DNA from: Minisyncoccota bacterium
GTDB taxonomy: Bacteria > Patescibacteriota > Minisyncoccia > Phycocordibacterales > Phycocordibacteraceae
DNA: 38,309 nucleotides
Reading direction: 5' to 3'
NCBI GenBank assembly: GCA_028687085.1
Contig: JAQUAU010000001.1
Location: 1 to 38,309 of the forward strand
Shown here: positions 669-23,826 of the stretch, one piece after another
Layout: each line of letters starts with the position of its first letter
How positions within the stretch are numbered: the first letter of the stretch is position 1
Position numbers and translations under genes: made by a program
Notes under the pieces: model-generated
Databases searched by the model: none
The model's input: only the letters and a program-made list of their open reading frames with translations
Told to the model about the DNA's origin: nothing

Positions 669-1547
669 ATGGACGAGAAGAGCGAGAAGCGTTTGAGAGA
701 GCTCGAAGCGATGATGGCGTCGCCCGATTTCTGGGCGGATAAGAGTCAGGCGCAGGCGCTCGTGCAGGAATATCAGCATCTCAAGGAGGGCGGTTCAGGC
801 GATCCGCACGACGCCGGAAATGCGACCTTGGCGATACTCGCGGGCGCGGGCGGCGACGATGCTGAGGACTTCGCGCGGATGCTCCGCAGGATGTATGAGG
901 GATATGCCGCCAAGAAGGGGTGGCGTACGCGCGAGCTCCATGCAAACGAGAACGATCAGGGCGGCTACCGCAACGTGATGCTCGAGATCTCCGGCAGCGG
1001 CGCCTACGGCCGCTTGCGGCACGAGGCGGGCGTGCACCGGCTCGTGCGCCAGTCGCCCTTCAATGCGAACGCGAAGCGGCAGACGAGCTTCGCGCTTGTC
1101 GAAGTGCTCCCGACTCTCGTGGCGACCGACAAGGTCGAGCTCAAACCGGACGATCTCGAGATACAGTTCGCGCGCGCCGGAGGCGCGGGCGGCCAGAACG
1201 TGAACAAGCGCGAGACGGCCGTGCGCATCCTGCATGTGCCGACCAACCTCTCGGTGCACATCTCGAGCGAGCGCAGTCAGCTCGCCAACCGCGAGAAGGC
1301 GATGGAGCTCCTCGCGGCTAAGATATTTGCGAAAGAAGAGGAGATTCGCCTCGCCGCGGCCAAGGGCCGCTCTATCGCCGCCACGACCGCCAACGAGTGG
1401 GGGAGTCAGATCCGCTCCTATGTCCTCCATCCCTATAAGATGGTCAAGGACCATCGCACTGAGTACGAGTCTTCGAACCCCGAAAAGGTGCTCGAGGGCG
1501 ACCTAGACGGCTTCATAGACGCCGCCGAGGCAGGTGAGGTACAATAA
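669..1547 (+). CDS. prfB: Peptide chain release factor 2, short form (292 aa)
   Basis: SPF tripeptide ([11 protein letters not shown]) and GGQ motif ([23 protein letters not shown]). C-terminal [13 protein letters not shown] resembles E. coli RF2. The protein starts at the position equivalent to the post-frameshift part of E. coli RF2. Confidence 0.9.
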
Positions 1548-3178: not shown

Positions 3179-4837
3179 ATGGCGAAAGAAGGACACAAAT
3201 ACATATTCGTCCTCGGCGGAGTGATGAGCGGCGTGGGGAAGGGTGTCGTCGCGAGCTCGGTCGGCCTCTTGCTCCAGCAGAAGGGCTATCCGGTCAATCT
3301 GGTCAAAGTCGACCCCTATCTCAACGTCGATGCCGGCACGATGAACCCCACCGAGCACGGCGAGGTGTTCGTACTCAAAAGCGGCATGGAGACCGACCAG
3401 GACATGGGCAATTACGAGCGCTTTCTCGGGCGCGACCTGACGAACGAAGACTACATGACGAGCGGGATGGTGTACCAGTCGGTCATTGAGCGCGAACGCG
3501 CACTCGGCTACGGCGGCAAGTGTGTCGAAGCGCTCCCGCACGTGCGCGACGAGATACTCCGGCGCTTCGAGGCCGCCGCCGCCTACAACGGCAGCCGCGT
3601 CTCGGTGATCGAGATCGGCGGCACGATTGGCGACTTCCAGAACGCGCTCTTTATCGAGGCAGCGCGCGTGCTGAAGATGGAGTATCCCGAGGACGTGCTC
3701 TTCGTCATGGTCTCGTACTTGCCGACCCCGGGCACCCTCGGCGAGATGAAGACCAAGCCGACCCAGACGGCAGTCCGCGACTTAAACTCCTACGGCGTTC
3801 AGCCGGACTTCATCGTCGCGCGCTCGAAGGAGCCGGTTGACGAGAAGCGCAAGGAGAAGCTCGCGATCTCCTGCTCAGTGCGCAAAGACCGCATCATCAG
3901 CGCGCCGGACATTTCGAGTATCTATGAAGCGCCGCTCAACTTCGAGAAGGACCGGCTCGGCGACGCGATGCTCGATGCCTTGAAGCTCCCCGAGAAGAAG
4001 AAGGCGTCGCTTGCCGCCTGGAAGAAGTTCGCGACGGCGGTCTCAAACACCAAGGCGCCTGAGATTTCTATCGCCGTGGTCGGCAAATATTTCGATACGG
4101 GCGACTTCGTCCTCTCCGACGCCTACCTCTCGGTCATCGAGGCGATCAAGTTCTCTGCGGCCAAGCTGAATCGGCACGCGAAGATCAGCTGGGTGAATTC
4201 TAAGAAGCTTGAAGCGAAGGGTGCAAAGGCCTCGAGCCTGCTCGCGGGCTACGACGGCATCATCGTCCCGGGCGGCTTCGGCGAGAGCGGCATCGAAGGC
4301 AAGATTAAGGCGATTCAATACGCACGCGAGAAAAAGATCCCGTACTTCGGCCTCTGCTACGGCATGCAGCTCATGGTCATCGAGTATGCGAGGAACGTCG
4401 TAGGGCTCAAAGACGCGAACACCACCGAGATCAAGAAGAGTGCTGCCGACCCGGTGGTCGATGTGATGCTCGAGCAGAAGAAGCACCTCTCTGACAACAA
4501 ATACGGCGGCACGATGCGCCTCGGCTCCTACCCCTGTTACCTGAAGAAGGGCACGATGGCTCGCGCTGCGTATAAAAAAGAATTAGTAGAAGAGCGCCAT
4601 CGCCATCGCTACGAAATTAATCCGAGTTATGTGAAGCAACTCGAAGCGGCCGGCCTCGTCTTCTCGGGCACGAGCCCCGACGGCGTCTTGATGGAGATCA
4701 GTGAGCTCCCGCGCGAGACGCACCCTTTCATGCTTGGTACGCAATTCCATCCTGAGCTCCAGGCGCGCCCGCTTGATCCGCACCCGCTCTTTACCGCCTT
4801 CCTCTCCGCCGCTATCGCGAAGAGGCGCAAGAAGTAA
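3179..4837 (+). CDS. pyrG: CTP synthase
   Basis: 552 aa. N-terminal YIFVLGGVMSGVGKG, and a glutamine amidotransferase region GLCYGMQL...HRHRYEINP...FHPE. Confidence 0.95.
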   Translation: MAKEGHKYIFVLGGVMSGVGKGVVASSVGLLLQQKGYPVNLVKVDPYLNVDAGTMNPTEHGEVFVLKSGMETDQDMGNYERFLGRDLTNEDYMTSGMVYQSVIERERALGYGGKCVEALPHVRDEILRRFEAAAAYNGSRVSVIEIGGTIGDFQNALFIEAARVLKMEYPEDVLFVMVSYLPTPGTLGEMKTKPTQTAVRDLNSYGVQPDFIVARSKEPVDEKRKEKLAISCSVRKDRIISAPDISSIYEAPLNFEKDRLGDAMLDALKLPEKKKASLAAWKKFATAVSNTKAPEISIAVVGKYFDTGDFVLSDAYLSVIEAIKFSAAKLNRHAKISWVNSKKLEAKGAKASSLLAGYDGIIVPGGFGESGIEGKIKAIQYAREKKIPYFGLCYGMQLMVIEYARNVVGLKDANTTEIKKSAADPVVDVMLEQKKHLSDNKYGGTMRLGSYPCYLKKGTMARAAYKKELVEERHRHRYEINPSYVKQLEAAGLVFSGTSPDGVLMEISELPRETHPFMLGTQFHPELQARPLDPHPLFTAFLSAAIAKRRKK

Positions 4838-7385: not shown

Positions 7386-8276
7386 ATGCATACCTCTAGA
7401 ATCATCACGGTCGCCGGCGCTTCGCTCGCCTTCCTTTTCGCGGGCGTCGCGTTCGCTCAGACTGCCGAGGTGCCCCCACCGCCCCTCTCGCCGTCGGCTG
7501 TTGTCCCTCCAGCGAAGAAACCGGCGCTTGATACGCGGGCGTCTGCGCTCACGCCTTCGCCGGTGAAGCAGGCGGCGCTAGAGAAGTTGCAGGCGGCTCG
7601 CGCAGAGGCGAAGAATAAGATGGAGACTGCCCGCGCAGATGCGCAGATGCGGGTAGAGAAGGCTCGTCTCGAAGCGCAGGCGCGCATTCAGGAGAAGAAA
7701 GAGAAGACGGCCGAGCGCCTGGCCAGTATCCAAGATGCACAGAAAAAGCAGATGGCCGAGAAGGCCGCAGCGCAATTCGAGAATCTGAACACCGTATGGA
7801 CCGACCGTTTCTTACAGCTCTTGAATCGCTATGACGACATTCTGCAGAAGATGCGCGACCGTGCCAATCTAGCTACTTCGAGCGGCAAGGAGGTGACTGC
7901 TGCCGATGCGGCGAGCAAGTCGGCAGGGACTGCGATCGAGAACGCTCGCGCCGCTGTTGTCGCACAAGCGGCAAAGAGCTACACGCTCGATGCTTCAGCT
8001 ATCGACACCGCCACCTCGACGGTCGCCTCAACGACTCCCGACCAGCAAGATCAGCAAGAGAAGTTTATGCGGAGCTTGCGAACGGCATTGCAGAATCTCC
8101 ACAAAGCTCTGTTTAAGGATCTCTTCACGCTTCGTGATGGCGTCATGAAGGATGCTCGCACGAGCGTGCAGAACGCTCTGCAGTCGCTCGGTAAGATTCC
8201 CCACATCGATACCGAGAATCCGGCGACTTCAGTTGCGCCGATTGCACCGGTCGCAACGACTACTTCAAACCAATAA
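7386..8276 (+). CDS. Secreted Ala/Gln/Lys-rich coiled-coil protein
   Basis: The signal-peptide-like start MHTSRIITVAGASLAFLFAGVAFAQT is taken at an internal ATG of ORF 7338..8276. It is followed by long amphipathic repeats (ARAEAKNKMETARADAQMRVEKARLEAQARIQ). Confidence 0.6.
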   Translation: MHTSRIITVAGASLAFLFAGVAFAQTAEVPPPPLSPSAVVPPAKKPALDTRASALTPSPVKQAALEKLQAARAEAKNKMETARADAQMRVEKARLEAQARIQEKKEKTAERLASIQDAQKKQMAEKAAAQFENLNTVWTDRFLQLLNRYDDILQKMRDRANLATSSGKEVTAADAASKSAGTAIENARAAVVAQAAKSYTLDASAIDTATSTVASTTPDQQDQQEKFMRSLRTALQNLHKALFKDLFTLRDGVMKDARTSVQNALQSLGKIPHIDTENPATSVAPIAPVATTTSNQ

Positions 8277-8288
8277 CCCTTACCTACT

Positions 8289-8747
8289 ATGGACGACAAT
8301 CAGCCAATGGGACAGATGCCGGTACCAGTCTCGGCACCGGTCGTGCCGCCAGAACCGGCAGCAGCACCGACTCCAGAGCCGACACCGGCAGCAGCAGCAC
8401 CAGCACCGGTGGCGACACCAGAGATAGTCATCACGCAGATGCCGGTGTCGTCGCACCGCAGTGTCGCCGGATATGCTATCGGCGGCATAGTGCTCCTCGT
8501 CGTTATCGCACTCGGCGTCTGGTATTTCACCAGTATGAAAGAGGCTCCGATACCGGAGGTGCCGATTGTTCTTGCGCCGGAGCCGGCGACTACCACGCCG
8601 CCGGTCATCGATCCGGCACAGCTGCCCGCGCTCGTTTCTGGCAATACGACGGCAGATATCGCGGCCGATCTTAGTCAGATCCCGGACACCTCGCTCTTGC
8701 TCGATGCAGATGCCGCCGCCGCCTCGTCTACCATCAGCGGCATATAG
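8289..8747 (+). CDS. Pro/Ala-rich single-pass membrane protein
   Basis: 152 aa with a low-complexity PAPE-rich N-terminus and one TM (YAIGGIVLLVVIALGVWYF). Confidence 0.5.
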   Translation: MDDNQPMGQMPVPVSAPVVPPEPAAAPTPEPTPAAAAPAPVATPEIVITQMPVSSHRSVAGYAIGGIVLLVVIALGVWYFTSMKEAPIPEVPIVLAPEPATTTPPVIDPAQLPALVSGNTTADIAADLSQIPDTSLLLDADAAAASSTISGI

Positions 8748-14739: not shown

Positions 14740-14954
14740 GCCGTGGCTTTAATTTCACTATCCTAGTTCAAACATGGTCGAATAATGTGGATTATCCACA
14801 CCAAGAAATAGCCATATTTTATTAATACTCATAAGATACGCCATTTTACTATCTATAATCTGATTATCTTCGGTTTATTGCCTAAATCTCATTGCATTTT
14901 AATTATTATTAGTTTAATATGTCGTTATTAACAGAATTCTGATAAAATCCCGCA

Positions 14955-16160
14955 ATGATTCATAAAATATCGTTCAGCAACTTCTTTTCCTTTATGGACG
15001 AGGTTTCCATCGATTTTGTTGTAGACAATCATGCTCCGGATACGAATGCCTATTTCACAGATAGTTTTGGGAATCGAATAAGTAAAATTATGACCGTTGT
15101 GGGAGGCAATGCTTCGGGGAAAACAAATTTACTCAGGAGTGTAGCCTTCCTAAGATGGTTTATAGCTGACTCTTTTACGGATCTAGAACCAACGCAGAAA
15201 ATAAGCGAGAAAGATATCTACCAACCCTTTTTATTTTGTGAACAGAGTGGGCCTAGTACATTTGAAATTACCTTCGCTATAGAGAAAGAGATTTATAAGT
15301 ACAACCTTTCCCTAAACAACGAAAGGGTTCTTAACGAAGTACTCTCTATCAAAAAAGAGACGAACTACTGGAATAAGATATTTACTAGAAACTATGACGA
15401 TCAAAGAAAGGAGTACAGTGTTAACTTTGCAAAGCTGGATTTGCCGTCCGACTTCGAAAAGCTTGTAAGACCGAATTCCTCTGTACTGTCTTCAGCAAAG
15501 CAAATTAACAATCCACACGCAGTGAAGATTGTAAATTATTTCTCAAGCATTCAATCTAGCTTTGATGAAATGGGGGCACCGAATAAAAATGCATACCAAG
15601 CGCTTTATAAAGCCGCTGAGTTTTATCATAATAAGCCTGAAATAAGGGACAAGGTAGAGAAGATACTTAAGAGTTTCGATCTCGGTATCTCAAAATTCGA
15701 AATCCAGAAGTTTAAAAGAGCCGACAATACTGAAGTTCATCTTCCGTTGTCTTATCACAAGCGAATAGACTCCGAAAAAGAGGCTATGCTTCTAATGAAT
15801 GAAGAGTCTGGCGGGACGCGCAACCTTTTCCTTCTTCTAAAGGATATATTCGCGGCCCTAGAAACCGGCAACATTGTTATTTTCGATGAGCTGGACAATA
15901 ATCTCCATCCGTTAATGGTTCCTGAGATCATAAATCTATTTAGATCGGTTAATCACAATCCGCACAATGCTCAATTGTTCTTTAGTTCACACAATGTACA
16001 GATTCTAAATGAATTAGACAAACAACAGATAGTCCTTGTTGAAAAAGATAAAAATATAAGCGACGCGTGGAAACTTAGTGATATTGAGGGAGTGCGCCCA
16101 GGGGAGAATTATTACACCAAATATCTAGCTGGTGTATATGGAGGAATACCGCGTCTCTAA
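14955..16160 (+). CDS. ABC-type (AAA_15/AAA_21-like) ATPase, AbiLi/AriA-like
   Basis: IHKISFSNFFSF start, Walker A GGNASGKTN, signature-like ESGGTRNLF, Walker B IVIFDELDNNLHP, H-loop FFSSHN. TGATAAAAT lies 6 nt before the ATG. Confidence 0.75.
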   Translation: MIHKISFSNFFSFMDEVSIDFVVDNHAPDTNAYFTDSFGNRISKIMTVVGGNASGKTNLLRSVAFLRWFIADSFTDLEPTQKISEKDIYQPFLFCEQSGPSTFEITFAIEKEIYKYNLSLNNERVLNEVLSIKKETNYWNKIFTRNYDDQRKEYSVNFAKLDLPSDFEKLVRPNSSVLSSAKQINNPHAVKIVNYFSSIQSSFDEMGAPNKNAYQALYKAAEFYHNKPEIRDKVEKILKSFDLGISKFEIQKFKRADNTEVHLPLSYHKRIDSEKEAMLLMNEESGGTRNLFLLLKDIFAALETGNIVIFDELDNNLHPLMVPEIINLFRSVNHNPHNAQLFFSSHNVQILNELDKQQIVLVEKDKNISDAWKLSDIEGVRPGENYYTKYLAGVYGGIPRL

Positions 16161-16174
16161 TAAATGTTCGTTAT

Positions 16175-16681
16175 ATGCGTCAACCTAAGATAACAGTTCT
16201 CGCTTATGGTGAAGGGGATGATGAAAAGATATTTCTTCGACACCTAGAAGCATTATATTGTCGTAGGAAGCTTGTAAGTGTAAGAACAGGCTCAGCCGGT
16301 GGAGGCAGTCCCTCGTCGATACTTATGAGGGCCAAGAGTTTCCGCTGGGGGTATAGGAGAGATTTTGAATTTATCCTGCTAGATACAGATAAGACTTGGC
16401 CTCCTGAAATGATAGATCTTGCAGCAGAAGAGGAAATAAAGCTAATCGGGAGTAGCCCATGTCTAGAAGCGTTTTTCTTGGACATTCTTCAATCTCCACA
16501 TTCTTGCAAAGGCGTTGGATCTAAAAAATGCAAGGAGATATTTGAGACGCACCACTGCAGTGGCCACAACTTCACAGAAGAAGAATGCGCTCGGCTTTTT
16601 CCTAAAGCATTTTTAAATGAAGCTCGAAAACGCAATGAGGACCTTAATTATATAATTACCGCAATGGAGGGCACTTTGTAA
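16175..16681 (+). CDS. Toprim-like RloB/DUF4276-type protein (AbiLii/AriB-like partner)
   Basis: VLAYGEGDDEKIFLRHL (Toprim-type Glu), ILLDTDK (DxD) and SSPCLEAFFLDIL (resembles the RloB SNPCFE motif). The gene starts 14 nt after the ATPase stop. Confidence 0.55.
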   Translation: MRQPKITVLAYGEGDDEKIFLRHLEALYCRRKLVSVRTGSAGGGSPSSILMRAKSFRWGYRRDFEFILLDTDKTWPPEMIDLAAEEEIKLIGSSPCLEAFFLDILQSPHSCKGVGSKKCKEIFETHHCSGHNFTEEECARLFPKAFLNEARKRNEDLNYIITAMEGTL

Positions 16682-16747
16682 TTCCACGGGCAAACGACGG
16701 TTCTAGCGCCATATCTCGCAGTCAACATACGTGAATGCATACCCGGC

Positions 16748-17143
16748 ATGGCGAGTATTCAAATAAGGAGTAGACTTAATCGGAACAGGCAGAATATGAA
16801 GAAAATAGACGAATTTACAAAGAGAATAGTTGCTTTCAGGAACGCTCGGGACTGGAAGCAGTTTCATAATCCCAAGGACCTCTCGTTGTCCCTCGTGCCC
16901 GAGGCTGCAGAGGTTATGGAGCATTTCCAGTGGAAGAGCAAGGAAGAGATAGAGAAGTACGTTGTCGATGCAAAGGAAGAAATAGGGGAAGAACTCGCCG
17001 ACGTTCTGTACTGGGTTCTCCTGATGGGTCACGACCTAAATATAAATGTACTCACTGCGCTCGACAAAAAGATGAAAAAAAACGAAGCAAAGTACCCGGT
17101 CGAGAAAGCGAAAGGGAAGCATACGAAGTACAACAAGCTTTGA
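16748..17143 (+). CDS. MazG-like nucleotide pyrophosphohydrolase (alternative start at 16796)
   Basis: FRNARDWKQFHNPKDLSLSLVPEAAEVMEHFQW...EELADVLYWVLLMGHDLNI...KMKKNEAKYP matches the MazG/DCTPP1-type all-alpha NTP-PPase pattern. Confidence 0.75.
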   Translation: MASIQIRSRLNRNRQNMKKIDEFTKRIVAFRNARDWKQFHNPKDLSLSLVPEAAEVMEHFQWKSKEEIEKYVVDAKEEIGEELADVLYWVLLMGHDLNINVLTALDKKMKKNEAKYPVEKAKGKHTKYNKL

Positions 17144-17146
17144 TTC

Positions 17147-19168
17147 ATGATCCAGATCGAAACATTTCCGTTTGAGAAAGAAAAATTCGATCAACTGAAG
17201 GGCTATCATTATGGGCTGAATTGGCCGGTCGTTTACATACAAGAAAATGGAAAGGAAATGTACATCGGGCAGACTACCGATGTGTATAGTCGAAGTAAGC
17301 AGCATTACGAAAATCCTGCCAGAGCTCGTCTGACTAAAATTCACATACTCACCGACGAGGAATTCAACTTATCTTCAGCTTTTGATTTCGAGTCACTCTT
17401 GATTCAATACGTCTCAGCAGAGGATGGTTTCAAGTTGCAGAACAGAAATGGCGGCTTAATAAATCACAATTATTACGACAAAGAAAAATATACAGCGAAA
17501 CTCGAGACAGTCTGGCCAAAACTTCAAGAAATTGGTTTAGTTAAACAGGAAATAGCCGACATCAAGAATAGTGAATTTTTTAAATATTCTCCATATAAAG
17601 CCCTAACCGAAGACCAGTTATTGGTAGCTAAGAAGATAGAAAAAAGTATTAGGAAAGGAAATACAGCAGCGCATGTTATTAACGGTGGCCCTGGAACGGG
17701 AAAGTCTATACTTGCTCTCTATCTTCTTAAGCATATGAAAGAGGAAGAGGATACGAAACACCTCAAAATCGCTCTGGTTGTTCCAATGAGTGGATTGAGA
17801 AATACGCTGCAACGAGTATTAAAACGGGTCCCGGGCATGGGGGCCGATTTGGTGATAGGTCCAAGCGATGTTGTTAAAAAAGAGTATGACGTACTTATTG
17901 TAGATGAAACGCACAGATTGCGTCGTCGAGTAAATTTGGCCAACTTTGGGTCCTACGATTCAACCAATAAGAAACTGGGTCTTTCTAAGGACGCAACACA
18001 GCTTGATTGGATCATTGCATCTTCCAAGCAGCAGATATTTTTTTACGACAGCAGACAGACTGTGGTTCCCGGGGATGTTCGACCCGGAGATTTTAGGAAA
18101 CTAGGAGCCGTGCAGTACGAGCTAACAAGCCAAATGCGTATACAGGGCGGTGAGGATTATTTGCAATTCGTTGATGATTTATTAGATCTTAAATTAGAAG
18201 GTAGTTTCCAATCGGCAAAATATGATTTCAAAATGTATGAAGACATTGGCGAAATGGTGCGAGATATTAAAATCAGAGATTCCGAGCACAAACTGGCTAG
18301 AGTTGTTGCAGGATATGCATGGTCTTGGAACACAAAAGGAGGTAAGGAGGGACATGATATCGAGATTGGTGACCTAAAACTCGTATGGAACAGTACCAAT
18401 ATTGATTGGGTAAATTCAAAAAATGCGATAAATGAAGTCGGCTGCATCCATACCGTTCAAGGGTATGACTTAAATTATGCGGGAGTGATTATCGGACCAG
18501 AGCTCTCTTACGATGAAAATTCGGGAACATTAGTGGTTGATGAGAAGAAATATAAAGATATCAATGGCAAACGATCGATTACCGACCCGGATGAGTTAAA
18601 GCGATATGTCATCAATATTTACAAAACATTATTAACGCGAGGTATAAAAGGAACCTACGTGTATGTAGTAGATGAGAAGTTGCGAAAGCATTTTAATGAT
18701 CTAGTTTCGGACACTTCAAAAGATACTGAAATCCTTTATACAGCACCTGTTTTGTCGCCGATTACTATAGACATGATTCGCGTGCCCCTTGTCGGTTCTG
18801 CCCCTTGTGGCAATCCGTTGGTAGGAGAACAAAACATAGAAGAGTATATTTTGGTGGAGAAGTCGAAAATCAAGCCAGGATTTGAATATTTCATACTAAG
18901 GGCTGAAGGCGATTCTATGAATCTTAGAGACATAAATGACGGCGATCTTGTGTTATGTCGTTTGCAAGAAAAGGCCGAAACAGGCGACCGTGTCGTGGCT
19001 CTCCTTGGAGGTGAAAATGTCACTATTAAAGAATATGGCCCACGAGTAGACGGTGTCCGCTTACTGATTCCGAAGAGCACAAATAAAAAGCATATGCCGA
19101 TTACTCCCGACGAGGGCGACAGCGTACAGGGTGTTGTGCAGGAAGTTATTAAATCGGAAAATGAATGA
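17147..19168 (+). CDS. Fusion protein: GIY-YIG nuclease + DUF2075 (Schlafen-helicase-like) P-loop NTPase + LexA/UmuD-type S24 peptidase
   Basis: aa 25-105 form the GIY-YIG domain (VVYIQENGKEMYIGQTTDVYSRSKQH...N). Walker A is GGPGTGKS (aa 180-187) and the DExH-like motif is VLIVDETHRL (aa 249-258). DUF2075-type LTSQMRIQGGEDYLQFVDDLL and IHTVQGYDLNYAGVIIG are present. aa 545-667 match LexA/UmuD: RVPLVGSAPCGNP...AEGDSM...VTIKEY. Confidence 0.75.
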   Translation: MIQIETFPFEKEKFDQLKGYHYGLNWPVVYIQENGKEMYIGQTTDVYSRSKQHYENPARARLTKIHILTDEEFNLSSAFDFESLLIQYVSAEDGFKLQNRNGGLINHNYYDKEKYTAKLETVWPKLQEIGLVKQEIADIKNSEFFKYSPYKALTEDQLLVAKKIEKSIRKGNTAAHVINGGPGTGKSILALYLLKHMKEEEDTKHLKIALVVPMSGLRNTLQRVLKRVPGMGADLVIGPSDVVKKEYDVLIVDETHRLRRRVNLANFGSYDSTNKKLGLSKDATQLDWIIASSKQQIFFYDSRQTVVPGDVRPGDFRKLGAVQYELTSQMRIQGGEDYLQFVDDLLDLKLEGSFQSAKYDFKMYEDIGEMVRDIKIRDSEHKLARVVAGYAWSWNTKGGKEGHDIEIGDLKLVWNSTNIDWVNSKNAINEVGCIHTVQGYDLNYAGVIIGPELSYDENSGTLVVDEKKYKDINGKRSITDPDELKRYVINIYKTLLTRGIKGTYVYVVDEKLRKHFNDLVSDTSKDTEILYTAPVLSPITIDMIRVPLVGSAPCGNPLVGEQNIEEYILVEKSKIKPGFEYFILRAEGDSMNLRDINDGDLVLCRLQEKAETGDRVVALLGGENVTIKEYGPRVDGVRLLIPKSTNKKHMPITPDEGDSVQGVVQEVIKSENE

Positions 19169-19205
19169 ATCAGAACTGCCGATGGGGAAGTACAGGTACG
19201 GAGTG

Positions 19206-19580
19206 CTATAACCTTCCTTTTACAGGAAATGTTTTCGGTGTTTCATTATGATTGAGCAGGCTTCTCACGATCTCTTCCGGTTCATGGCCGTTTTTGAGTT
19301 TGTACCATCTGAAGACAGATCGTACTGCGAGGACTAGGGTGATGATTCCCAAAACGATGAAGATGGATCGTATGGTCTCGCCCGGAATGTAGCCGATATC
19401 TCGGAAAGTTTCTGTGAGATATCCGGTGGAGAGCGAAGCAAAGGCGATACCGCCGAATCCGAAGGCTGAGTTCGATGAATTGTAGAATTCCTTTGAGCGA
19501 AACAACCTTAAGACAAGGGAATCTTTGTTGATTATGATAACGTCCCTGTCTCTGTTGTCGTGTTCTTTAAATATTTTCAT
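19206..19580 (-). CDS. Hypothetical 2-TM membrane protein (124 aa)
   Basis: ORF with two hydrophobic segments, divergent from the XRE gene. No family recognised. Confidence 0.45.
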   Translation of the reverse strand: MKIFKEHDNRDRDVIIINKDSLVLRLFRSKEFYNSSNSAFGFGGIAFASLSTGYLTETFRDIGYIPGETIRSIFIVLGIITLVLAVRSVFRWYKLKNGHEPEEIVRSLLNHNETPKTFPVKGRL

Positions 19581-19635
19581 GCGGTGACATCTTAGCGAAG
19601 GGTATTTTAGTTGTCAACTATTCGACCAAGATGGA

Positions 19636-19685
19636 TTGACTTCTTTACATCATTTGTGTATGCTTGCTCATATGAGCATGCATAC
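19636..19685 (+). promoter_or_regulatory. Promoter (TTGACT-N17-TATGCT) overlapped by a 28-bp near-perfect palindrome (candidate XRE operator)
   Basis: TTGACT at 19636..19641 and TATGCT at 19659..19664. The palindrome GTATGCTTGCTCATATGAGCATGCATAC at 19658..19685 has a perfect core TGCTCATATGAGCA and covers the ATG at 19672. Confidence 0.55.
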
Positions 19686-20364
19686 ACAAAAAATAAAGGA
19701 ATTACGGCTCGAAAAAGGATTGAGCCAGGATCGAGTTGCCCAAGCCATTGGCGTCTCGCGCCCCACCTATACCGCTATTGAGGCAGGGAAGCAGAAGCTC
19801 GACCTTGAAGAGGCGAAGAAGCTGGCAGACCTCTTTGGCATCGATGTAGATGCGCTCCTCTCGGGGAACATCCCCAACTTCGAGAAGTATAAGCACATGA
19901 TCCTCGCGTACCTGCGCATGAAGCTTTCTGCTGACTGCAAGGTTCCCAAAACGAAGCTCGCGAAGCTTCTCTACCTCGCCGACTTCGCGTGGTTCTATGA
20001 CCATCTCGAGAGCATGAGCGGTATGCAGTATAGGAAGATTGCTTACGGCCCAGTGCCGGACTTATTCTTCAGGGCTATCGATGAACTCGAAGAGAGCGGC
20101 AAGATTGTGATTGAAAGGAAGAATGACGATGGCAGAGAGATGTTCCTAATATGCGAGGCTGAAAGCAATAAGAATGAGAAGCTCGAAACTATCACTAAGA
20201 ATGAAAAGGGCTTGATGTCTGACATCGCGAAGAAGTGGAAGGATAAGAAGACGAAAGATATCGTTAATTTCACGCATAATCAGTTGCCGTATTTTCTCTG
20301 CAGAGAGGACGAGCTCATTCCCTACGAGCTCATCACGCAGGAGGATCCCGATAAGGTGTATTAA
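19672..20364 (+). CDS. XRE-family HTH + DUF4065 (Panacea) domain antitoxin-like protein
   Basis: HTH region IKELRLEKGLSQDRVAQAIGVSRPTYTAIEAGKQ. DUF4065-like region KTKLAKLLYLADFAWFYDHLESMSGMQYRKIAYGPVP. The start is uncertain (19636 TTG, 19672 or 19678). Confidence 0.7.
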   Translation: MSMHTQKIKELRLEKGLSQDRVAQAIGVSRPTYTAIEAGKQKLDLEEAKKLADLFGIDVDALLSGNIPNFEKYKHMILAYLRMKLSADCKVPKTKLAKLLYLADFAWFYDHLESMSGMQYRKIAYGPVPDLFFRAIDELEESGKIVIERKNDDGREMFLICEAESNKNEKLETITKNEKGLMSDIAKKWKDKKTKDIVNFTHNQLPYFLCREDELIPYELITQEDPDKVY

Positions 20365-20371
20365 AAGAGGT

Positions 20372-20764
20372 ATGGACGTTCTGTACTCTGTACATGTTGA
20401 AGAGTTTGCAGAACGATACTTCATAAAGAAATTCCACAAGAAATATCAAGAGAAATGGGACACTACCTTAATTGCTATCAAGGCCGAGCTTAGCCGCATT
20501 GACAACTTGCTGCTGTCAAGTCGCGCAACTACCATTGCCCAGGGCGATGATGTGAAGATCATAAAGACTGAATTCAGAGTGGTGGGGACGAAGGAGTCTG
20601 CGAAGTCATCGGGTAACAGATGCATTGTGGCGTGGCATCCAAAAGAATTGTCTGTCTCTGTCCTGCTCGTATACAACAAGACAGATTTGAGTGGCAAGAA
20701 CGAGACGGCCGAATGGCAAGACATGATTCGAGAGAACTATCCACAGTATAAGAGCCTGTTTTAA
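20372..20764 (+). CDS. Putative toxin partner, RelE/ParE (Gp49/HigB-like) fold
   Basis: 130 aa, starting 7 nt after the antitoxin stop. KTEFRVVGTKESAKSSGNRCIVAWHPKELSVSVLLVYNKTD resembles the RelE-superfamily core (R...GKSGG.R.I......i.ll.vY.K.d). Confidence 0.45.
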   Translation: MDVLYSVHVEEFAERYFIKKFHKKYQEKWDTTLIAIKAELSRIDNLLLSSRATTIAQGDDVKIIKTEFRVVGTKESAKSSGNRCIVAWHPKELSVSVLLVYNKTDLSGKNETAEWQDMIRENYPQYKSLF

Positions 20765-20881
20765 TCACCGCTCTAGTGCCGTGATTCGCGGGGAGGGGCA
20801 GAAGGTCCCGCGGTTTAAGAGAGTTATGTAATCAGGGACTCACCCTCGCGGCATAAAAGTATTATCCATAATACATTTCAT

Positions 20882-21280
20882 ATGAAAGGATTCGTCACCA
20901 ATATTGAGCAGGCATCGATTGAGAACGACTATTTCAGAAAGGTGCTCTATACCGATGAACACGTCCAGCTCGTCGTGATGAGCTTGAAGCCCAGCGAGGA
21001 CATCGGCGAGGAGGTGCACCAGCTCGACCAATTTATCCGCGTCGAGGCGGGCGAGGGGAGCGCAGTCTTAGACGGCGTCGCGCACCCGATACAAGACGGC
21101 TCGGCGATTGTCATCCCGCAAGGCACGCGGCACAATATCATCAACACCTCGTCGGAGAATCCGATGAAGCTCTACACGCTCTATGCACCGCCGAACCATA
21201 AGGACGGCAAGGTGCACGAGACGAAGGCAGAGGCAGAGGCCGACGAGGCCGAGCACTTCGACGGCACAACGAGCGAATAA
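20882..21280 (+). CDS. Cupin-domain protein
   Basis: GEEVHQLDQFIRVEAGEGSAVLDG...IVIPQGTRHNIINTS matches the cupin_2 pattern. Confidence 0.7.
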   Translation: MKGFVTNIEQASIENDYFRKVLYTDEHVQLVVMSLKPSEDIGEEVHQLDQFIRVEAGEGSAVLDGVAHPIQDGSAIVIPQGTRHNIINTSSENPMKLYTLYAPPNHKDGKVHETKAEAEADEAEHFDGTTSE

Positions 21281-22153: not shown

Positions 22154-23110
22154 ATGAAGGCTCGGATGGTTATATATCAAGCGAAGAACGGCGCAATTGA
22201 ACTGCGGGGTGATGCTTCGCGCGATACTCTGTGGGCTACACAGGCGCAGATTGCCGAAGTCTTTGGTGTTGAGCGGTCGGTCGTTACTAAACACATCAGG
22301 AATATCCTCAAAGATAAGGAACTAGAGACGCATGCAGTATGTGCAAAATTTGCACATACTGCCGCGGACGGGAAGGTCTACCAAGTCGAGCACTATAATC
22401 TCGATGCCATCATCTCGGTCGGCTACCGAGTCAATTCAAAGACCGCGACGCAGTTCAGACAATGGGCGACGAAGACGCTTCGCGAACATATAACGAAAGG
22501 ATATACGCTTAACCGAAAGCGGATTGGCGCGAACTACGTCGCTTTTATGAAAGCTGTGGGAGATATTCAAGCGCTCTTGCCGGAGCATGTCGCCCTCGAC
22601 CCAAAGAACATTCTGGAACTCGTGAAGGAGTTTTCAACGGTCTGGGTGTCGCTTGATGCGTACGACAAGGAGAAACTTACCGTAGTCGGCACAACAAAGC
22701 GCGCAATTAAGCTCACTGGATTGGAACTCGAAGAGACTATCGCGGATCTTCGTGCAGAGCTCATGAGAAAAGCGGAGGCTACTGAACTGTTCGCTCAGGA
22801 GAGGACAAAGGGAAGCGTCGAAGGAATCGTGGGGAACGTCATGCAGTCGTTTGGCGGCAGGCCCGTGTATCCGACTATTGAAGAAAAAGCGGCTCACCTG
22901 CTCTACTTCATGGTTAAAAATCACCCCTTTACCGACGGTAATAAGCGTTCGGGAGCGTTCTCGTTCATCTGGTTCTTGCGAAAGGCGAAAGTGAAAACGG
23001 CTCGGAACATCAATCCGGGCGCGCTTACGGCGCTCACTCTCTTGATCGCTGAAAGTAATCCAAAACGAAAGGATCAAATGGTCGCGCTTATCACTCAAAT
23101 CTTAAAATGA
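22154..23110 (+). CDS. RhuM-family N-terminal domain fused to a Fic/Doc domain (Doc-type motif)
   Basis: The RhuM-like region is VERSVVTKHIRNI...YNLDAIISVGYRVNSKTATQFRQWATKTL. The C-terminal motif HPFTDGNKR fits the Doc-type HxFx(D/N)(A/G)NKR. Confidence 0.7.
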   Translation: MKARMVIYQAKNGAIELRGDASRDTLWATQAQIAEVFGVERSVVTKHIRNILKDKELETHAVCAKFAHTAADGKVYQVEHYNLDAIISVGYRVNSKTATQFRQWATKTLREHITKGYTLNRKRIGANYVAFMKAVGDIQALLPEHVALDPKNILELVKEFSTVWVSLDAYDKEKLTVVGTTKRAIKLTGLELEETIADLRAELMRKAEATELFAQERTKGSVEGIVGNVMQSFGGRPVYPTIEEKAAHLLYFMVKNHPFTDGNKRSGAFSFIWFLRKAKVKTARNINPGALTALTLLIAESNPKRKDQMVALITQILK

Positions 23111-23826
23111 AGCATATCTTCTTCGACACCGAGACGACCGGCAATGGCGATAAGGACCGGCTTGTTCAGCTTGCGGTAAAGGAGCGGTTTATCGACGAGC
23201 CTCTCGTAAACGCCACCTACAAGCCGCCGGTCGCGATCTCGATCGAGTCGATGGCGATTCACCATATCACCGAGCGGATGGTAGCGAGTAGGCCGGCGTT
23301 TACCGACGCGCCGGAGTATGGGAGTGTGAAGGATCTCTTTGAGAGCGCTGAGACGATCGCGATCGCGCACAACGCGGCCTTCGACGTGGCGATGCTCGCG
23401 CGCGAGGGTATCACCCCGCGTCAGACCATCTGCACCTACAAGGTCGCCTACGCGCTCGACCCTGATGACGTGATGCCGAACTATCGGCTCCAGTACTTGC
23501 GCTATCTGCTCGACCTCGATGTTGAGGCCGAGGCGCACGACGCCTGGGGCGATGTGCTCGTCTTGGAGGCGCTCTTCGAACGGCTCCTCGATAAGATGAA
23601 GGAGCGGCACGGGACCGAGGAGGCCGCGCTCGAAGCGATGCTCGAGATCTCGGCGCGGCCGCTCCTCTTCACGACGCTCCGCTTCGGCAAATATAACGGC
23701 AAGCGGCTCGAGGACGTGGTGAAGACCGATCGCAGTTACCTCGAATGGTTGCTGAAAGAGAAGGAGCAAAATCCAGCAGGAGAGGCAGATTGGATATACA
23801 CGCTCAGGCAGTATCTGGGGAGGTAG
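23107..23826 (+). CDS. DEDDh 3'-5' exonuclease (ExoX/DnaQ-like) with a DUF3820/ExoX-C-like tail
   Basis: Exo I FFDTETTG, Exo II AHNAAFDVAML, Exo III HDAWGDVLV. The tail is RFGKYNGKRLEDVVKTDRSYLEWLL. The start overlaps the upstream stop (ATGA). Confidence 0.75.
   Translation: MKHIFFDTETTGNGDKDRLVQLAVKERFIDEPLVNATYKPPVAISIESMAIHHITERMVASRPAFTDAPEYGSVKDLFESAETIAIAHNAAFDVAMLAREGITPRQTICTYKVAYALDPDDVMPNYRLQYLRYLLDLDVEAEAHDAWGDVLVLEALFERLLDKMKERHGTEEAALEAMLEISARPLLFTTLRFGKYNGKRLEDVVKTDRSYLEWLLKEKEQNPAGEADWIYTLRQYLGR

What the first reader, a model, noticed from the sequence alone, without database searches (positions are those of the whole stretch)
18779..19147. S24 module of the fusion protein keeps a UmuD-like Cys-Gly cleavage site and the Ser/Lys dyad at canonical spacing
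Seen directly: VPLVGSAPC554-G555NP, then GDS590M 36 residues later, then VTIK628EY 38 residues after the Ser. From memory, UmuD is cleaved at Cys24-Gly25 with Ser60 and Lys97. LexA is cleaved at Ala84-Gly85 with Ser119 and Lys156. The spacing here therefore matches an active autoprotease rather than a degenerate dimerisation domain. Cleavage would separate a nuclease-NTPase of about 554 aa from a C-terminal fragment of about 119 aa. That makes it a plausible activation switch tied to RecA* (ssDNA produced during phage replication or DNA damage). LexA-like domains normally control DNA-binding repressors, so one attached to an enzymatic effector is unusual.
Basis: partly seen in the sequence, partly recalled or inferred. 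Interest (0 to 1): 0.8.

Follow-up and report, generated by a model that had tools for sequence, protein, structure and literature searches.

The report
LexA-type self-cleaving switch on nuclease-helicase
A probable anti-phage nuclease-helicase in an uncultured Patescibacteria genome ends in an intact LexA-type self-cleaving domain, a conserved and portable module that probably links the enzyme directly to the cell's DNA-damage signal (RecA on single-stranded DNA).

Summary
ORF 17147..19168 (+, 673 aa) is GIY-YIG nuclease + DUF2075/Schlafen-type SF1B helicase + Peptidase_S24. HMM alignment puts Cys554-Gly555, Ser590 and Lys628 on LexA Ala84-Gly85, Ser119 and Lys156.

All 120 close homologues (59-85% identity) keep them. 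So do 116-119 of 120 members of a second, distant S24-bearing clade found in cultured Pseudomonas, Achromobacter and Marinobacter.

The site is not specifically UmuD-like. The module is 50-57% identical to Patescibacteria LexA C-terminal domains, which also use Cys-Gly.

- **Portable cassette.** Linker plus S24 (18743-19156) is 66-91% identical across three nuclease-helicase cores that share at most 38% identity, at the same locus. dN/dS is about 0.03.
- **Conserved partner.** A MazG-like pyrophosphohydrolase gene (16748-17143) abuts these genes in Patescibacteria, Proteobacteria and Bacillus plasmids.
- **Optional module.** Most relatives lack S24 and end near the predicted cleavage point.
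- **Setting.** The gene lies in a low-GC defence island.

Best reading: a RecA*-responsive autoproteolytic switch on an Nhi-like enzyme. Cleavage itself, RecA dependence and the direction of the switch are untested. I found no paper on this fusion. Verdict: new variant of known kinds.

The parts
16748..17143 (+). MazG-like nucleoside-triphosphate pyrophosphohydrolase gene. It ends 3 nt before the fusion gene. The true start is probably the ATG at 16796, by comparison with orthologues.
   Evidence: Pfam PF12643 MazG-like, E = 4e-18. An orthologous gene abuts or overlaps the nuclease-helicase gene in L001-3, L005-11, L013, L026, P. putida L021 and A. insolitus L022, and lies about 150 nt upstream on Bacillus plasmids L024/L025. 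Window and L005 share 85% nt identity over 16757-17151.
17147..19168 (+). Fusion gene of 673 aa: GIY-YIG nuclease, DUF2075/Schlafen-type SF1B helicase, flexible linker, LexA-type S24 autoprotease module.
   Evidence: P0001 is the identical protein in a Candidatus Pacebacteria MAG. AlphaFold2 pLDDT is 83.
17147..17566 (+). GIY-YIG nuclease domain, residues about 1-140.
   Evidence: Pfam PF01541 scores 20.1 bits, just under its 22.6 cut-off, but 18 of 24 relatives match it. Y30, Y39, G41, R49, H53, E82 and N99 are invariant in 120 homologues.
17672..18673 (+). SF1B helicase/NTPase core (PF09848, Schlafen group 3 / DUF2075), residues 176-509.
   Evidence: Pfam E = 2.4e-66. Walker A (G180, G183, K186), D253-E254, Q329, R331 and R498 are invariant. 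Foldseek hits RecD2, SLFN11, RecD, Dna2 and Upf1. PADLOC gives partial AbiO/Nhi hits.
18713..18781 (+). Flexible, poorly conserved linker, residues 523-545.
   Evidence: pLDDT is below 50 for residues 523-539. The linker averages 32% identity among homologues, against 68-78% for the domains.
18743..19156 (+). Portable 'linker end + S24' cassette, residues 533-670. Nucleotide similarity to loci that carry a different nuclease-helicase core resumes here.
   Evidence: blastn of window against L005 gives no similarity over 17152-18742, then 81% nt and 91% aa identity over 18743-19156. S24 modules are 66-91% identical across three core classes that share at most 38% identity. dN = 0.048 and dS = 1.57.
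18785..19138 (+). Peptidase_S24 domain, residues 547-664.
18806..18811 (+). Predicted scissile bond Cys554-Gly555 within PLVGSAPCGNPL.
   Evidence: Aligned to LexA A84-G85. Cys-Gly occurs in 117 and Ala-Gly in 3 of 120 homologues. It is invariant in the alignment with Patescibacteria and Flavobacteria LexA proteins. pLDDT is below 50 in both models, as expected for a mobile loop.
18914..18916 (+). Ser590, the predicted nucleophile, in GDSM.
   Evidence: Aligned to LexA S119. Invariant in 120 of 120 homologues.
19028..19030 (+). Lys628, the predicted general base, in VTIK.
   Evidence: Aligned to LexA K156. Invariant in 120 of 120 homologues.
18890..19021 (+). Residues equivalent to the LexA determinants of RecA* binding. 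F582, L584 and V625 form the pocket for the RecA L2 loop. G621-G622-E623-N624 replace the D150-D151-E152 acidic patch.
   Evidence: The determinants are taken from PMC9926225 and mapped through the alignment. F582 is conserved in 120 of 120, position 584 is L, V or I, V625 is conserved in 119 of 120, and position 623 is E or D in 118 of 120.
14800..21000 (.). Low-GC island (39-47% GC against a 55-60% backbone). It holds AbiLi/AbiLii-like genes (14955-16681), the MazG-like gene, the fusion gene, a small membrane ORF (19206-19580, minus strand) and an HTH_3-SocA/Panacea gene followed by a 130-aa ORF (19636-20764).
   Evidence: The slot between TspO and the MazG-like gene holds different genes in syntenic genomes: Fic in L001, and HTH-M78/IrrE plus DUF4411 in L005.

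Best explanation
The gene encodes one polypeptide with four parts: a GIY-YIG nuclease, a Schlafen/DUF2075-type SF1B helicase, a disordered linker of about 25 residues, and a catalytically intact LexA-type S24 autoprotease. It is co-transcribed with a MazG-like NTP pyrophosphohydrolase gene and lies in a defence island.

Proposed mechanism:
1. At rest the enzyme is held in a restrained state, probably as a dimer through the S24 domain. This is inferred.
2. Phage replication or DNA damage produces RecA-ssDNA filaments. The S24 domain docks in the filament groove using the conserved F582/L584/V625 pocket. The long linker keeps the bulky enzyme outside the groove.
3. The mobile Cys554-Gly555 loop becomes fixed over Ser590 and Lys628, and the bond is cut in cis.
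4. This frees a 554-aa nuclease-helicase that corresponds to the many natural homologues lacking S24. That enzyme then degrades DNA at or near the ssDNA-bearing intermediates.

Shown here: the domain identities, the intact and strongly conserved catalytic and cleavage residues, the modularity of the S24 cassette, the MazG partnership, and the island context. Inferred: that self-cleavage happens (about 0.7), that RecA* stimulates it (about 0.55), that cleavage activates rather than removes the enzyme (about 0.45), and that the role is anti-phage defence (about 0.65). The overall confidence of 0.45 refers to the core claim, a RecA*-responsive self-cleaving switch on the nuclease-helicase, and not to every step at once.
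For: **Catalytic register and fold**
- The register is exact: HMM and pairwise alignments put C554-G555, S590 and K628 on the LexA residues. The predicted fold matches LexA C-terminal domains at TM about 0.8.

**Conservation**
- G555, S590 and K628 are invariant and P1 is only Cys or Ala in 120 homologues.
- S24 is the best-conserved part of the protein: 78% mean identity against 68-69% for the nuclease and helicase, with dN/dS about 0.03.
- An independent type-B clade in Proteobacteria keeps AAG in 118, GxSM in 119 and Lys in 116 of 120 members.

**Origin**
- The nearest non-fusion relatives are genuine Patescibacteria LexA repressors, 50-57% identical and with the same PLVG(S/T)APCG site. 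LexA is a RecA*-responsive protein in every system studied.

**RecA-docking residues**
- The F111/L113/V153 equivalents are conserved and one acidic residue of the patch is kept.

**Modularity**
- The same cassette, including its linker junction SPITxDMIRVPLVGSAPCG, sits on three cores that share at most 38% identity at one syntenic locus.
- Among 150 family representatives, S24 is present in 19. These are scattered on the core tree, often next to S24-less sisters.
- Alignments to S24-less relatives end at query residues about 515-525, close to the cut site.

**Precedent**

**Defence context**
- The low-GC island carries AbiL-like and toxin-antitoxin-like genes.
- The neighbouring slot is variable.
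- The A. insolitus homologue lies beside PARIS-like, Z1/DUF4420 and integrase genes.
Against: - No experiment bears on this. Self-cleavage, RecA dependence and the effect of cleavage are all inferred.
- The LexA acidic patch D150-D151-E152, which contacts the RecA groove, is reduced to a single acidic residue (GGEN or GDN). Patescibacteria LexA proteins keep IDDE. RecA* affinity may therefore be lower, or different.
- AlphaFold2 gives pLDDT below 50 at the Cys-Gly loop in both models and no coordinates were available. Whether the loop can reach the pocket could not be measured.
- Invariance is weaker evidence inside a domain that is 78% conserved overall.
- The PADLOC hits to Nhi/AbiO are partial and weak.
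- Some copies sit among housekeeping genes.
Confidence: 0.45

Rival explanations
1. The switch runs the other way. RecA*-stimulated cleavage switches the enzyme off during the SOS response. It could do so by breaking an S24-mediated dimer needed for double-strand cutting, or by exposing a C-terminal degron on the nuclease-helicase fragment. This would protect host ssDNA gaps and repair intermediates.
For: LexA cleavage is itself an inactivation. Nhi works as a dimer. In the type-B clade the new C-terminus would end in ...AAA or ...RAAA. From general knowledge, that resembles the VAA end that marks the LexA N-terminal fragment for ClpXP, and the LAA end of the ssrA tag. ClpP is encoded near one homologue.
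Against: S24-less homologues are the majority and are presumably active without any such dimerisation module. The type-A site would leave ...SAPC, which is not a recognised degron. Full-length Nhi is the inactive form in vitro.
Confidence: 0.2
2. The S24 domain is used mainly for dimerisation, or for recruiting the helicase-nuclease to RecA filaments. Cleavage would be negligible or incidental.
For: LexA, UmuD and CI C-terminal domains are dimerisation and RecA-groove-binding modules. The RecA-pocket residues are conserved.
Against: Binding alone would not constrain the scissile dipeptide, the Ser or the Lys. Yet all are invariant in type A, are kept in type B, and P1 varies only between Cys and Ala. 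One divergent representative, P0156, lacks the Ala/Cys-Gly site and has Arg in place of Lys. This shows that decay is visible when it happens.
Confidence: 0.12
3. Self-cleavage occurs but is not governed by RecA*. It could be constitutive maturation, or it could be triggered or blocked by another ligand, for example a phage antirepressor-like protein that binds S24 domains, or a phage recombinase filament.
For: The acidic patch that LexA uses on RecA is mostly lost. S24 proteins self-cleave without RecA at high pH (general knowledge). No recA gene was seen in the held loci, though that sample is tiny.
Against: The module is closest to RecA-responsive LexA proteins of the same phylum. The L2-loop pocket is intact. 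From memory, lambda CI has a similar LGGDE motif and is still RecA*-dependent.
Confidence: 0.1
4. The MazG-like plus nuclease-helicase pair is a DNA-repair or replication-stress module, not a defence system. S24 would give it UmuD-like post-translational SOS control. This rival concerns the biological role and is compatible with any of the cleavage models.
For: MazG-type enzymes sanitise nucleotide pools. Some copies lie among housekeeping genes. The family is common in small Patescibacteria genomes. Human SLFN11, which shares the helicase fold, acts at stressed replication forks (PMC6765204).
Against: The gene sits in a low-GC island with abortive-infection and toxin-antitoxin genes. The distribution is patchy. 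Whole cores are swapped at one locus. Relatives occur on plasmids and viral contigs. Nuclease-DUF2075 proteins have demonstrated anti-phage activity.
Confidence: 0.2

Closest known systems
LexA repressor C-terminal domain (Peptidase S24), especially Patescibacteria and Flavobacteria LexA proteins with a Cys-Gly site
   Same: Same fold, Ser/Lys dyad, cleavage-site region (PLVG..APCG.PL) and spacing. The module is 50-57% identical to Patescibacteria LexA and 32% identical to E. coli LexA. The hydrophobic pocket for the RecA L2 loop is conserved.
   Different: There is no LexA winged-helix DNA-binding domain; a 520-aa nuclease-helicase takes its place. The score is below the TIGR00498 cut-off (67.8 against 110.95). 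The linker is long and disordered. The acidic RecA-contact patch is reduced from three acidic residues to one.
UmuD to UmuD' (RecA*-mediated cleavage that activates DNA polymerase V)
   Same: It has a Cys-Gly scissile bond, a 36-residue distance to the Ser, and the logic that cleavage changes the activity of an enzyme rather than of a repressor.
   Different: The module is less similar to UmuD than to LexA (42.3 against 67.8 bits; PDB E = 4.5e-6 against 7.7e-13). UmuD is a separate subunit and cleaves in trans. Here the S24 domain is covalently joined to the effector and looks like a cis-cleaving LexA type. No umuC partner was noted next to the gene.
Nhi / Nhi-like / AbiO (single-protein nuclease-helicase anti-phage defence with a DUF2075 helicase)
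   Same: It shares the layout of an N-terminal nuclease plus a DUF2075 SF1B helicase, has PADLOC partial hits to Nhi and AbiO, and lies in a defence island. Full-length Nhi is autoinhibited and an active truncated form exists.
   Different: The nuclease in the window protein is GIY-YIG, not PD-(D/E)XK. Sequence similarity is low and partial. Nhi has no S24 domain; it carries a poorly conserved glyoxalase/bleomycin-resistance-like C-terminus. A MazG-like partner gene has not been described for Nhi.
Schlafen group III proteins (human SLFN11, SLFN14)
   Same: The helicase domain belongs to the same Pfam family, PF09848 (224.9 bits), and the model matches SLFN11 and SLFN14 structures. Conceptually, both would be effectors tied to ssDNA or replication stress.
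   Different: Sequence identity is only about 10%. Schlafen proteins have an N-terminal RNase domain, not GIY-YIG, and no S24 domain. Any functional parallel is speculative.

Membership tests
Peptidase S24 (LexA/UmuD/CI-type autoprotease) | S24 domain recognised above the curated threshold over its full length | tested here: met
   PF00717 scores 65.5 bits against a 23.3 cut-off, covering profile positions 1-115 of 116. Foldseek TM is about 0.8 to LexA C-terminal domains.
Peptidase S24 (LexA/UmuD/CI-type autoprotease) | Ser nucleophile and Lys general base at the aligned catalytic positions | tested here: met
   S590 aligns with LexA S119 and K628 with K156. Both are invariant in 120 homologues.
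Peptidase S24 (LexA/UmuD/CI-type autoprotease) | Ala/Cys-Gly scissile bond in a cleavage-site region about 35 residues before the Ser | tested here: met
   C554-G555 aligns with A84-G85. It is Cys-Gly in 117 and Ala-Gly in 3 of 120 homologues.
Peptidase S24 (LexA/UmuD/CI-type autoprotease) | Self-cleavage at alkaline pH | not testable with these tools
   This needs purified protein.
Peptidase S24 (LexA/UmuD/CI-type autoprotease) | Cleavage stimulated by RecA-ssDNA filaments; residues that dock in the RecA groove | tested here: inconclusive
   The pocket F111/L113/V153 is conserved as F582/L584/V625. The acidic patch DDE is reduced to one acidic residue, E/D623. The activity itself cannot be tested here.
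LexA transcriptional repressor (TIGR00498) | N-terminal LexA winged-helix DNA-binding domain and a full-length match above the equivalog cut-off | tested here: not met
   The score is 67.8 bits against a cut-off of 110.95, and only profile positions 79-200 match. No PF01726 domain is found.
UmuD (NF007621) | Full-length match above the cut-off, as a stand-alone small subunit | tested here: not met
   The score is 42.3 bits against a cut-off of 110. The domain is the C-terminus of a 673-aa enzyme.
DUF2075 / Schlafen group 3 helicase (PF09848), SF1B | Domain match with intact Walker A and B motifs and arginine fingers | tested here: met
   The score is 224.9 bits. G180, G183, K186, D253, E254, Q329, R331 and R498 are invariant. 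Foldseek hits RecD2, SLFN11, Dna2 and Upf1.
GIY-YIG nuclease (PF01541) | Domain match and catalytic Tyr/Tyr/Arg/His/Glu/Asn residues | tested here: inconclusive
   The score is 20.1 bits, just under the 22.6 cut-off. However, 18 of 24 relatives match, and Y30, Y39, R49, H53, E82 and N99 are invariant.
Nhi / AbiO anti-phage nuclease-helicase | Match to the PADLOC Nhi/AbiO models over the full length; PD-(D/E)XK N-terminal nuclease | tested here: not met
   Only partial hits were found (46-47 bits, residues about 142-351). The nuclease is GIY-YIG. It resembles Nhi in architecture but is not a member by sequence.
Nhi / AbiO anti-phage nuclease-helicase | Protection against phage | not testable with these tools
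   Only context is available: the low-GC island and the defence-gene neighbours.

The most novel reading that the evidence does not exclude
The linker-plus-S24 unit is a portable trigger cassette. It would turn different nuclease-helicase effectors into zymogens that are fired directly, at the protein level, by RecA-ssDNA filaments or phage recombinase filaments. This would be an immune-sensing route that bypasses transcription. It would be shared by Patescibacteria and Proteobacteria, would always be teamed with a MazG-like nucleotide pyrophosphohydrolase, and would parallel the ssDNA-triggered action of human SLFN11.
Probability: 0.3. Interest if true: 0.85.

Novelty: new variant of a known kind. 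Interest (0 to 1): 0.68.

Why it matters
The well-studied RecA*-responsive S24 proteins (LexA, phage CI-type repressors, UmuD) control transcription or a polymerase subunit. A LexA-type autoprotease covalently attached to a nuclease-helicase would be a direct, post-translational link between the universal signal for excess ssDNA and a DNA-degrading effector. That would be a new way to arm, or to disarm, an immune or genome-maintenance enzyme.

The cassette behaviour suggests the S24 unit is a reusable regulatory part: the same module sits on three unrelated cores and is gained and lost across the family.

The conserved MazG-like partner defines a two-gene system that I did not find described in the literature searched.

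Close architectural relatives exist in cultured Pseudomonas putida, Achromobacter, Marinobacter and Pseudohongiella, so the idea can be tested with standard genetics and biochemistry.

It also shows that genome-reduced Patescibacteria maintain LexA-type damage signalling wired into accessory genes.

Tried and rejected
- **Loop geometry.** I tried to judge from AlphaFold2 whether the Cys-Gly loop reaches the Ser/Lys pocket. Both models give pLDDT below 50 exactly at residues 552-556, and no coordinates or PAE are returned. Foldseek rmsd values to cleavable (1jhe) and non-cleavable LexA forms are indistinguishable at 2.8-3.0 A. The result is inconclusive.
- **'UmuD-like' reading.** Rejected in favour of LexA-like.
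- **recA search.** No recA gene was found in the window or in 26 related loci, about 330 kb in all. The sample is far too small to mean absence.
- **Stand-alone S24 proteins.** Small ORFs P0302, P0317 and P0322 looked like UmuD-like proteins. Where the DNA was checked (P0302 and P0322), tblastn shows that similarity to the fusion gene continues upstream of the called start, to residues 473-669 or 528-669. These two are 5'-truncated relics.
- **Phage or plasmid copies.** Only S24-less relatives were found in PLSDB plasmids, INPHARED phages and IMG/VR.
- **Literature.** Seven full-text searches (DUF2075+S24; S24 peptidase+anti-phage+RecA; LexA-like+defence; GIY-YIG+S24+helicase; MazG-like+anti-phage, among others) found no description of the fusion.
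- **Alternative cores.** The N-terminal 255 residues of the alternative core in L005 match no Pfam, PDB or PHROG entry. Calling it PD-(D/E)XK-like rests only on a D...ExK-like motif seen by eye.
- **Promoter and terminator scan.** It gave nothing above the shuffled expectation.
- **S24-only protein search.** The word-indexed search returned mostly gene fragments and LexA proteins, so it could not reveal other effector fusions.
Full report
**1. The observation**

ORF 17147..19168 (+) encodes 673 aa. C554, G555, S590 and K628 lie at nt 18806, 18809, 18914 and 19028, in the motifs PLVGSAPCGNPL, GDSM and VTIKEY.

Pfam finds three domains:
- Peptidase_S24 at residues 547-664 (65.5 bits, E = 4.4e-18, nearly the full profile).
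- The Schlafen-group-3/DUF2075 helicase at residues 176-509 (E = 2.4e-66).
- A borderline GIY-YIG domain at residues 32-61.

NCBIfam's LexA model matches its C-terminal half at E = 9.7e-19, and the UmuD model at 6.6e-11. Both are below their family cut-offs.

phmmer against PDB returns only LexA and UmuD chains. The printed alignment to E. coli LexA puts A84-G85 on C554-G555, S119 on S590 and K156 on K628.

**2. Is the domain degenerate?**

The protein is identical to a database entry from a Candidatus Pacebacteria MAG contig of 38,309 bp.

The 120 best homologues are 59-85% identical, all come from Patescibacteria-type MAGs, and all carry PF00717 plus PF09848. Among them:
- The P1-P1' pair is Cys-Gly in 117 and Ala-Gly in 3.
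- G555, S590 and K628 are invariant columns.
- S24 is the best-conserved segment, at 78% mean identity to the window protein. The nuclease and helicase are at 68-69% and the linker at 32%.
- Between the window and locus L005 the module has dN = 0.048 and dS = 1.57.

The GIY-YIG catalytic residues and the helicase Walker A/B and arginine residues are also invariant. The enzyme part therefore looks active too.

AlphaFold2 gives a confident multidomain model (pLDDT 83) with a disordered linker at residues 523-539. Confidence is low exactly at residues 552-555. A model of the module alone shows the same pattern.

Foldseek matches RecD2, SLFN11, RecD, Dna2 and Upf1 for the core, and LexA, UmuD and CI C-terminal domains for the tail. 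No coordinates are returned, so the loop-to-pocket distance could not be measured.

**3. Where the module comes from**

Searching with residues 533-673 alone finds fragments of fusion genes. After those come genuine LexA repressors of Patescibacteria (PF01726 + PF00717) at 50-57% identity, and Flavobacteria LexA proteins at about 50%.

These LexA proteins have the same PLVG(S/T)APCG site. Cys and Gly are invariant in a 52-sequence alignment dominated by them.

So Cys-Gly is the local LexA site, not a UmuD hallmark. The module is best described as a captured LexA C-terminal domain.

**4. The module is a portable cassette**

Genome loci found with the S24 segment show the same neighbourhood: TspO, a variable slot, the MazG-like gene, the nuclease-helicase-S24 gene, and a cupin gene.

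In L005, L006, L007, L009 and L011 the gene after the MazG-like gene encodes a protein of 767-771 aa. Its core is a different, longer nuclease-helicase:
- DUF2075 scores E = 1e-105.
- The N-terminal 255 aa are unassigned.

blastn of the window against L005 gives three segments:
- 85% identity through the MazG-like gene, up to nt 17151.
- No detectable similarity from 17152 to 18742.
- 81% nt (91% aa) identity from 18743 to 19156. This segment starts inside the disordered linker, 21 residues before the cut site.

A pairwise matrix shows three core classes with at most 38% identity between classes. Their S24 modules are 66-91% identical, and the junction SPITxDMIRVPLVGSAPCG is conserved.

The core has therefore been exchanged between a conserved MazG-like 5' flank and a conserved S24 3' flank.

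The two small 'S24-only' ORFs that I checked at the DNA level, in L016-18 and L019/20, are truncated relics of such genes.

**5. Breadth of the family**

A full HMMER scan of 1.84 billion cluster representatives gives 472 proteins at E <= 1e-30. The whole Patescibacteria clade collapses to one representative.

Most relatives are 520-600 aa GIY-YIG-DUF2075 proteins whose alignment ends near query residue 520, so they have no S24.

A local S24 HMM finds the domain in 19 of the 150 best representatives. On a rough neighbour-joining tree of the cores these are scattered, often as sisters of S24-less proteins. That pattern implies repeated gain or loss.

Most of these carry a 'type B' S24 with an AAAG or AACG site.

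A search with the Pseudomonas putida member P0140 (WP_064301751) returns 120 proteins at 58-99% identity. They come from Pseudomonas, Marinobacter, Pseudohongiella, Natronospirillum, Achromobacter, Allopusillimonas and Mariprofundaceae. All have S24, with AAG in 118, GxSM in 119 and Lys in 116 of 120.

One divergent representative, P0156, has lost the site and has Lys replaced by Arg. This shows what decay looks like.

No S24-bearing copy was found in plasmid, phage or IMG/VR collections. Only S24-less relatives appear there.

**6. A conserved partner and the setting**

A gene of about 106-131 aa for a MazG-like protein (PF12643) sits directly upstream of the nuclease-helicase gene, with a gap or overlap of 1-4 nt. 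This holds in:
- the window;
- nearly all Patescibacteria loci examined;
- P. putida;
- A. insolitus.

It also lies upstream (about 150 nt away) of S24-less homologues on Bacillus plasmids, and downstream of them on two IMG/VR contigs. The proteins align well across all of these. The one exception is L004, where a glyoxalase/Ble-like gene takes that place.

In the window the pair lies in a 39-47% GC island on a 55-60% GC backbone. The island also holds AbiLi/AbiLii-like genes and an HTH-SocA/Panacea pair.

The slot next to the MazG-like gene carries Fic in L001, and HTH-M78/IrrE plus DUF4411 in L005. In A. insolitus the neighbours are AAA_15/21 plus DUF4435 (PARIS-like), an integrase, and Z1/DUF4420.

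This is defence-island behaviour, although one copy sits among housekeeping genes.

**7. Mechanism**

Cryo-EM work on E. coli identifies what LexA uses to dock in the RecA filament groove (PMC9926225):
- A pocket formed by F111, L113 and V153, which receives RecA F203.
- An acidic patch, D150-D151-E152.
- Contacts that fix the otherwise flexible cleavage loop.

Through the alignment these map as follows:
- F582 is conserved in 120 of 120 homologues.
- Position 584 is L, V or I.
- V625 is conserved in 119 of 120.
- The acidic patch becomes G621-G622-E623-N624, with one acidic residue kept in 118 of 120.

Patescibacteria LexA proteins keep IDDE at this position. The docking pocket is therefore intact but the electrostatic part is weakened. 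From memory, this resembles the slower-cleaving lambda CI.

The same paper notes that the LexA N-terminal domain clashes on the filament. Here a disordered linker of about 25 residues could keep the 520-aa enzyme out of the groove.

The Nhi preprint reports three relevant points:
- A truncated fragment is active.
- The authors suggest that truncation may be part of the mechanism.

In addition, the predicted N-terminal product (residues 1-554) matches the extent of natural S24-less enzymes.

This leads to the preferred model of a RecA*-fired zymogen. The step estimates are:

| Step | Estimate |
|---|---|
| Self-cleavage occurs | about 0.7 |
| RecA* stimulates it | about 0.55 |
| Cleavage activates the enzyme | about 0.45 |
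| The role is anti-phage defence | about 0.65 |

The main rival is the reverse switch. SOS-triggered cleavage would remove a dangerous nuclease-helicase. The type-B site would leave an ...AAA C-terminus that resembles ClpXP degrons (general knowledge). Other rivals are listed separately.

**8. Comparison with known systems, and novelty**

The module meets every sequence-level criterion for an S24 autoprotease. It is not a LexA repressor, because it has no DNA-binding domain and scores below the cut-off. It is not UmuD either.

The enzyme resembles Nhi, Nhi-like and AbiO proteins in architecture, but it matches their models only partially and has a different nuclease. It shares the Schlafen helicase family.

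Full-text searches of PMC and bioRxiv found no description of a DUF2075-S24 or nuclease-helicase-S24 fusion, or of the MazG-like partnership. Automatic annotations do list the three domains side by side.

I class it as a new variant of known kinds. It is real, conserved, widespread and uncharacterised, and testable homologues exist in cultured bacteria. Interest is 0.68.

Noticed in passing
window 17152-18742 compared with L005:6125-8006, and also L006, L007, L009 and L011: At one syntenic locus the nuclease-helicase core is replaced wholesale. There are three core classes with at most 38% identity. The upstream MazG-like gene and the downstream linker-plus-S24 stay 80-85% identical at the nucleotide level. 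The 3' breakpoint falls inside the disordered linker.
   Followed up: yes
window 16748-17143; L021:7681-8001; L022:7684-8004; L024:3422-3751; L028:4723-5031: A MazG-like (PF12643) pyrophosphohydrolase gene is tied to GIY-YIG-DUF2075 genes with or without S24. This holds in Patescibacteria, Pseudomonas, Achromobacter, Bacillus plasmids and IMG/VR contigs, where it lies downstream. It appears to be an undescribed two-gene unit. Its role is unknown.
   Followed up: partly
window 14955-16681; L001:4408-5601; L005:4001-5709: The slot between TspO and the MazG-like gene is a variable hotspot. It holds AbiLi/AbiLii-like genes (AAA_21 + RloB) in the window, a Fic protein in L001, and HTH-Peptidase_M78 (IrrE/RmrA-like) plus DUF4411 in L005.
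   Followed up: partly
window 14800-21000: A low-GC island (39-47% GC) sits in a 55-60% GC backbone of housekeeping genes: RF-2, FtsX, CTP synthase, BipA and FtsH.
   Followed up: partly
window 19636-20764: An HTH_3 + SocA/Panacea antitoxin-like gene (242 aa, TTG start) is followed after 7 nt by a 130-aa ORF with no family match. This is probably a toxin-antitoxin pair whose toxin is undescribed.
   Followed up: no
L016:5001-5615; L019:4788-5381: Short 'S24 family peptidase' ORFs of 126-204 aa in Paceibacterota are 5'-truncated relics of fusion genes. They keep the intact Cys-Gly, Ser and Lys residues. L016 also encodes a true LexA (7632-8303) whose aligned site reads VGCD rather than APCG. 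L019 has DUF4238, HNH and a Y-family polymerase gene nearby.
   Followed up: partly
P0342, P0345, P0370, P0398 (alignment A3): LexA repressors of many Patescibacteria and Flavobacteria use a Cys-Gly scissile bond rather than the textbook Ala-Gly. It is invariant in all 52 sequences of alignment A3.
   Followed up: partly
L004:5519-5998: In one homologue's locus a glyoxalase/bleomycin-resistance-like gene occupies the position of the MazG-like gene, 3 nt upstream of the fusion gene. Nhi carries a glyoxalase/bleomycin-resistance-like domain at its C-terminus, so this may be a recurring association.
   Followed up: no
window 22154-23110: A RhuM + Fic/DOC protein gene lies just outside the island, next to an ExoX-like exonuclease gene (23107-23826).
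   Followed up: no
window 669-1547: The release-factor ORF matches the PCRF profile only from position 95 onward and is short at 292 aa. It may be a prfB gene with the usual programmed frameshift, or it may have a mis-set start.
   Followed up: no
L025:955-5581: A Bacillus plasmid carries a MazG-like gene, then a 686-aa GIY-YIG protein with a different, unassigned body and no S24, then a second MazG-like fragment (3587-3748), then an S24-less DUF2075 gene. This looks like tandem modules of the same kind.
   Followed up: no
P0246 (700 aa): One GIY-YIG-DUF2075 representative ends in an HTH_3 domain instead of S24. This is another C-terminal add-on in the family.
   Followed up: no
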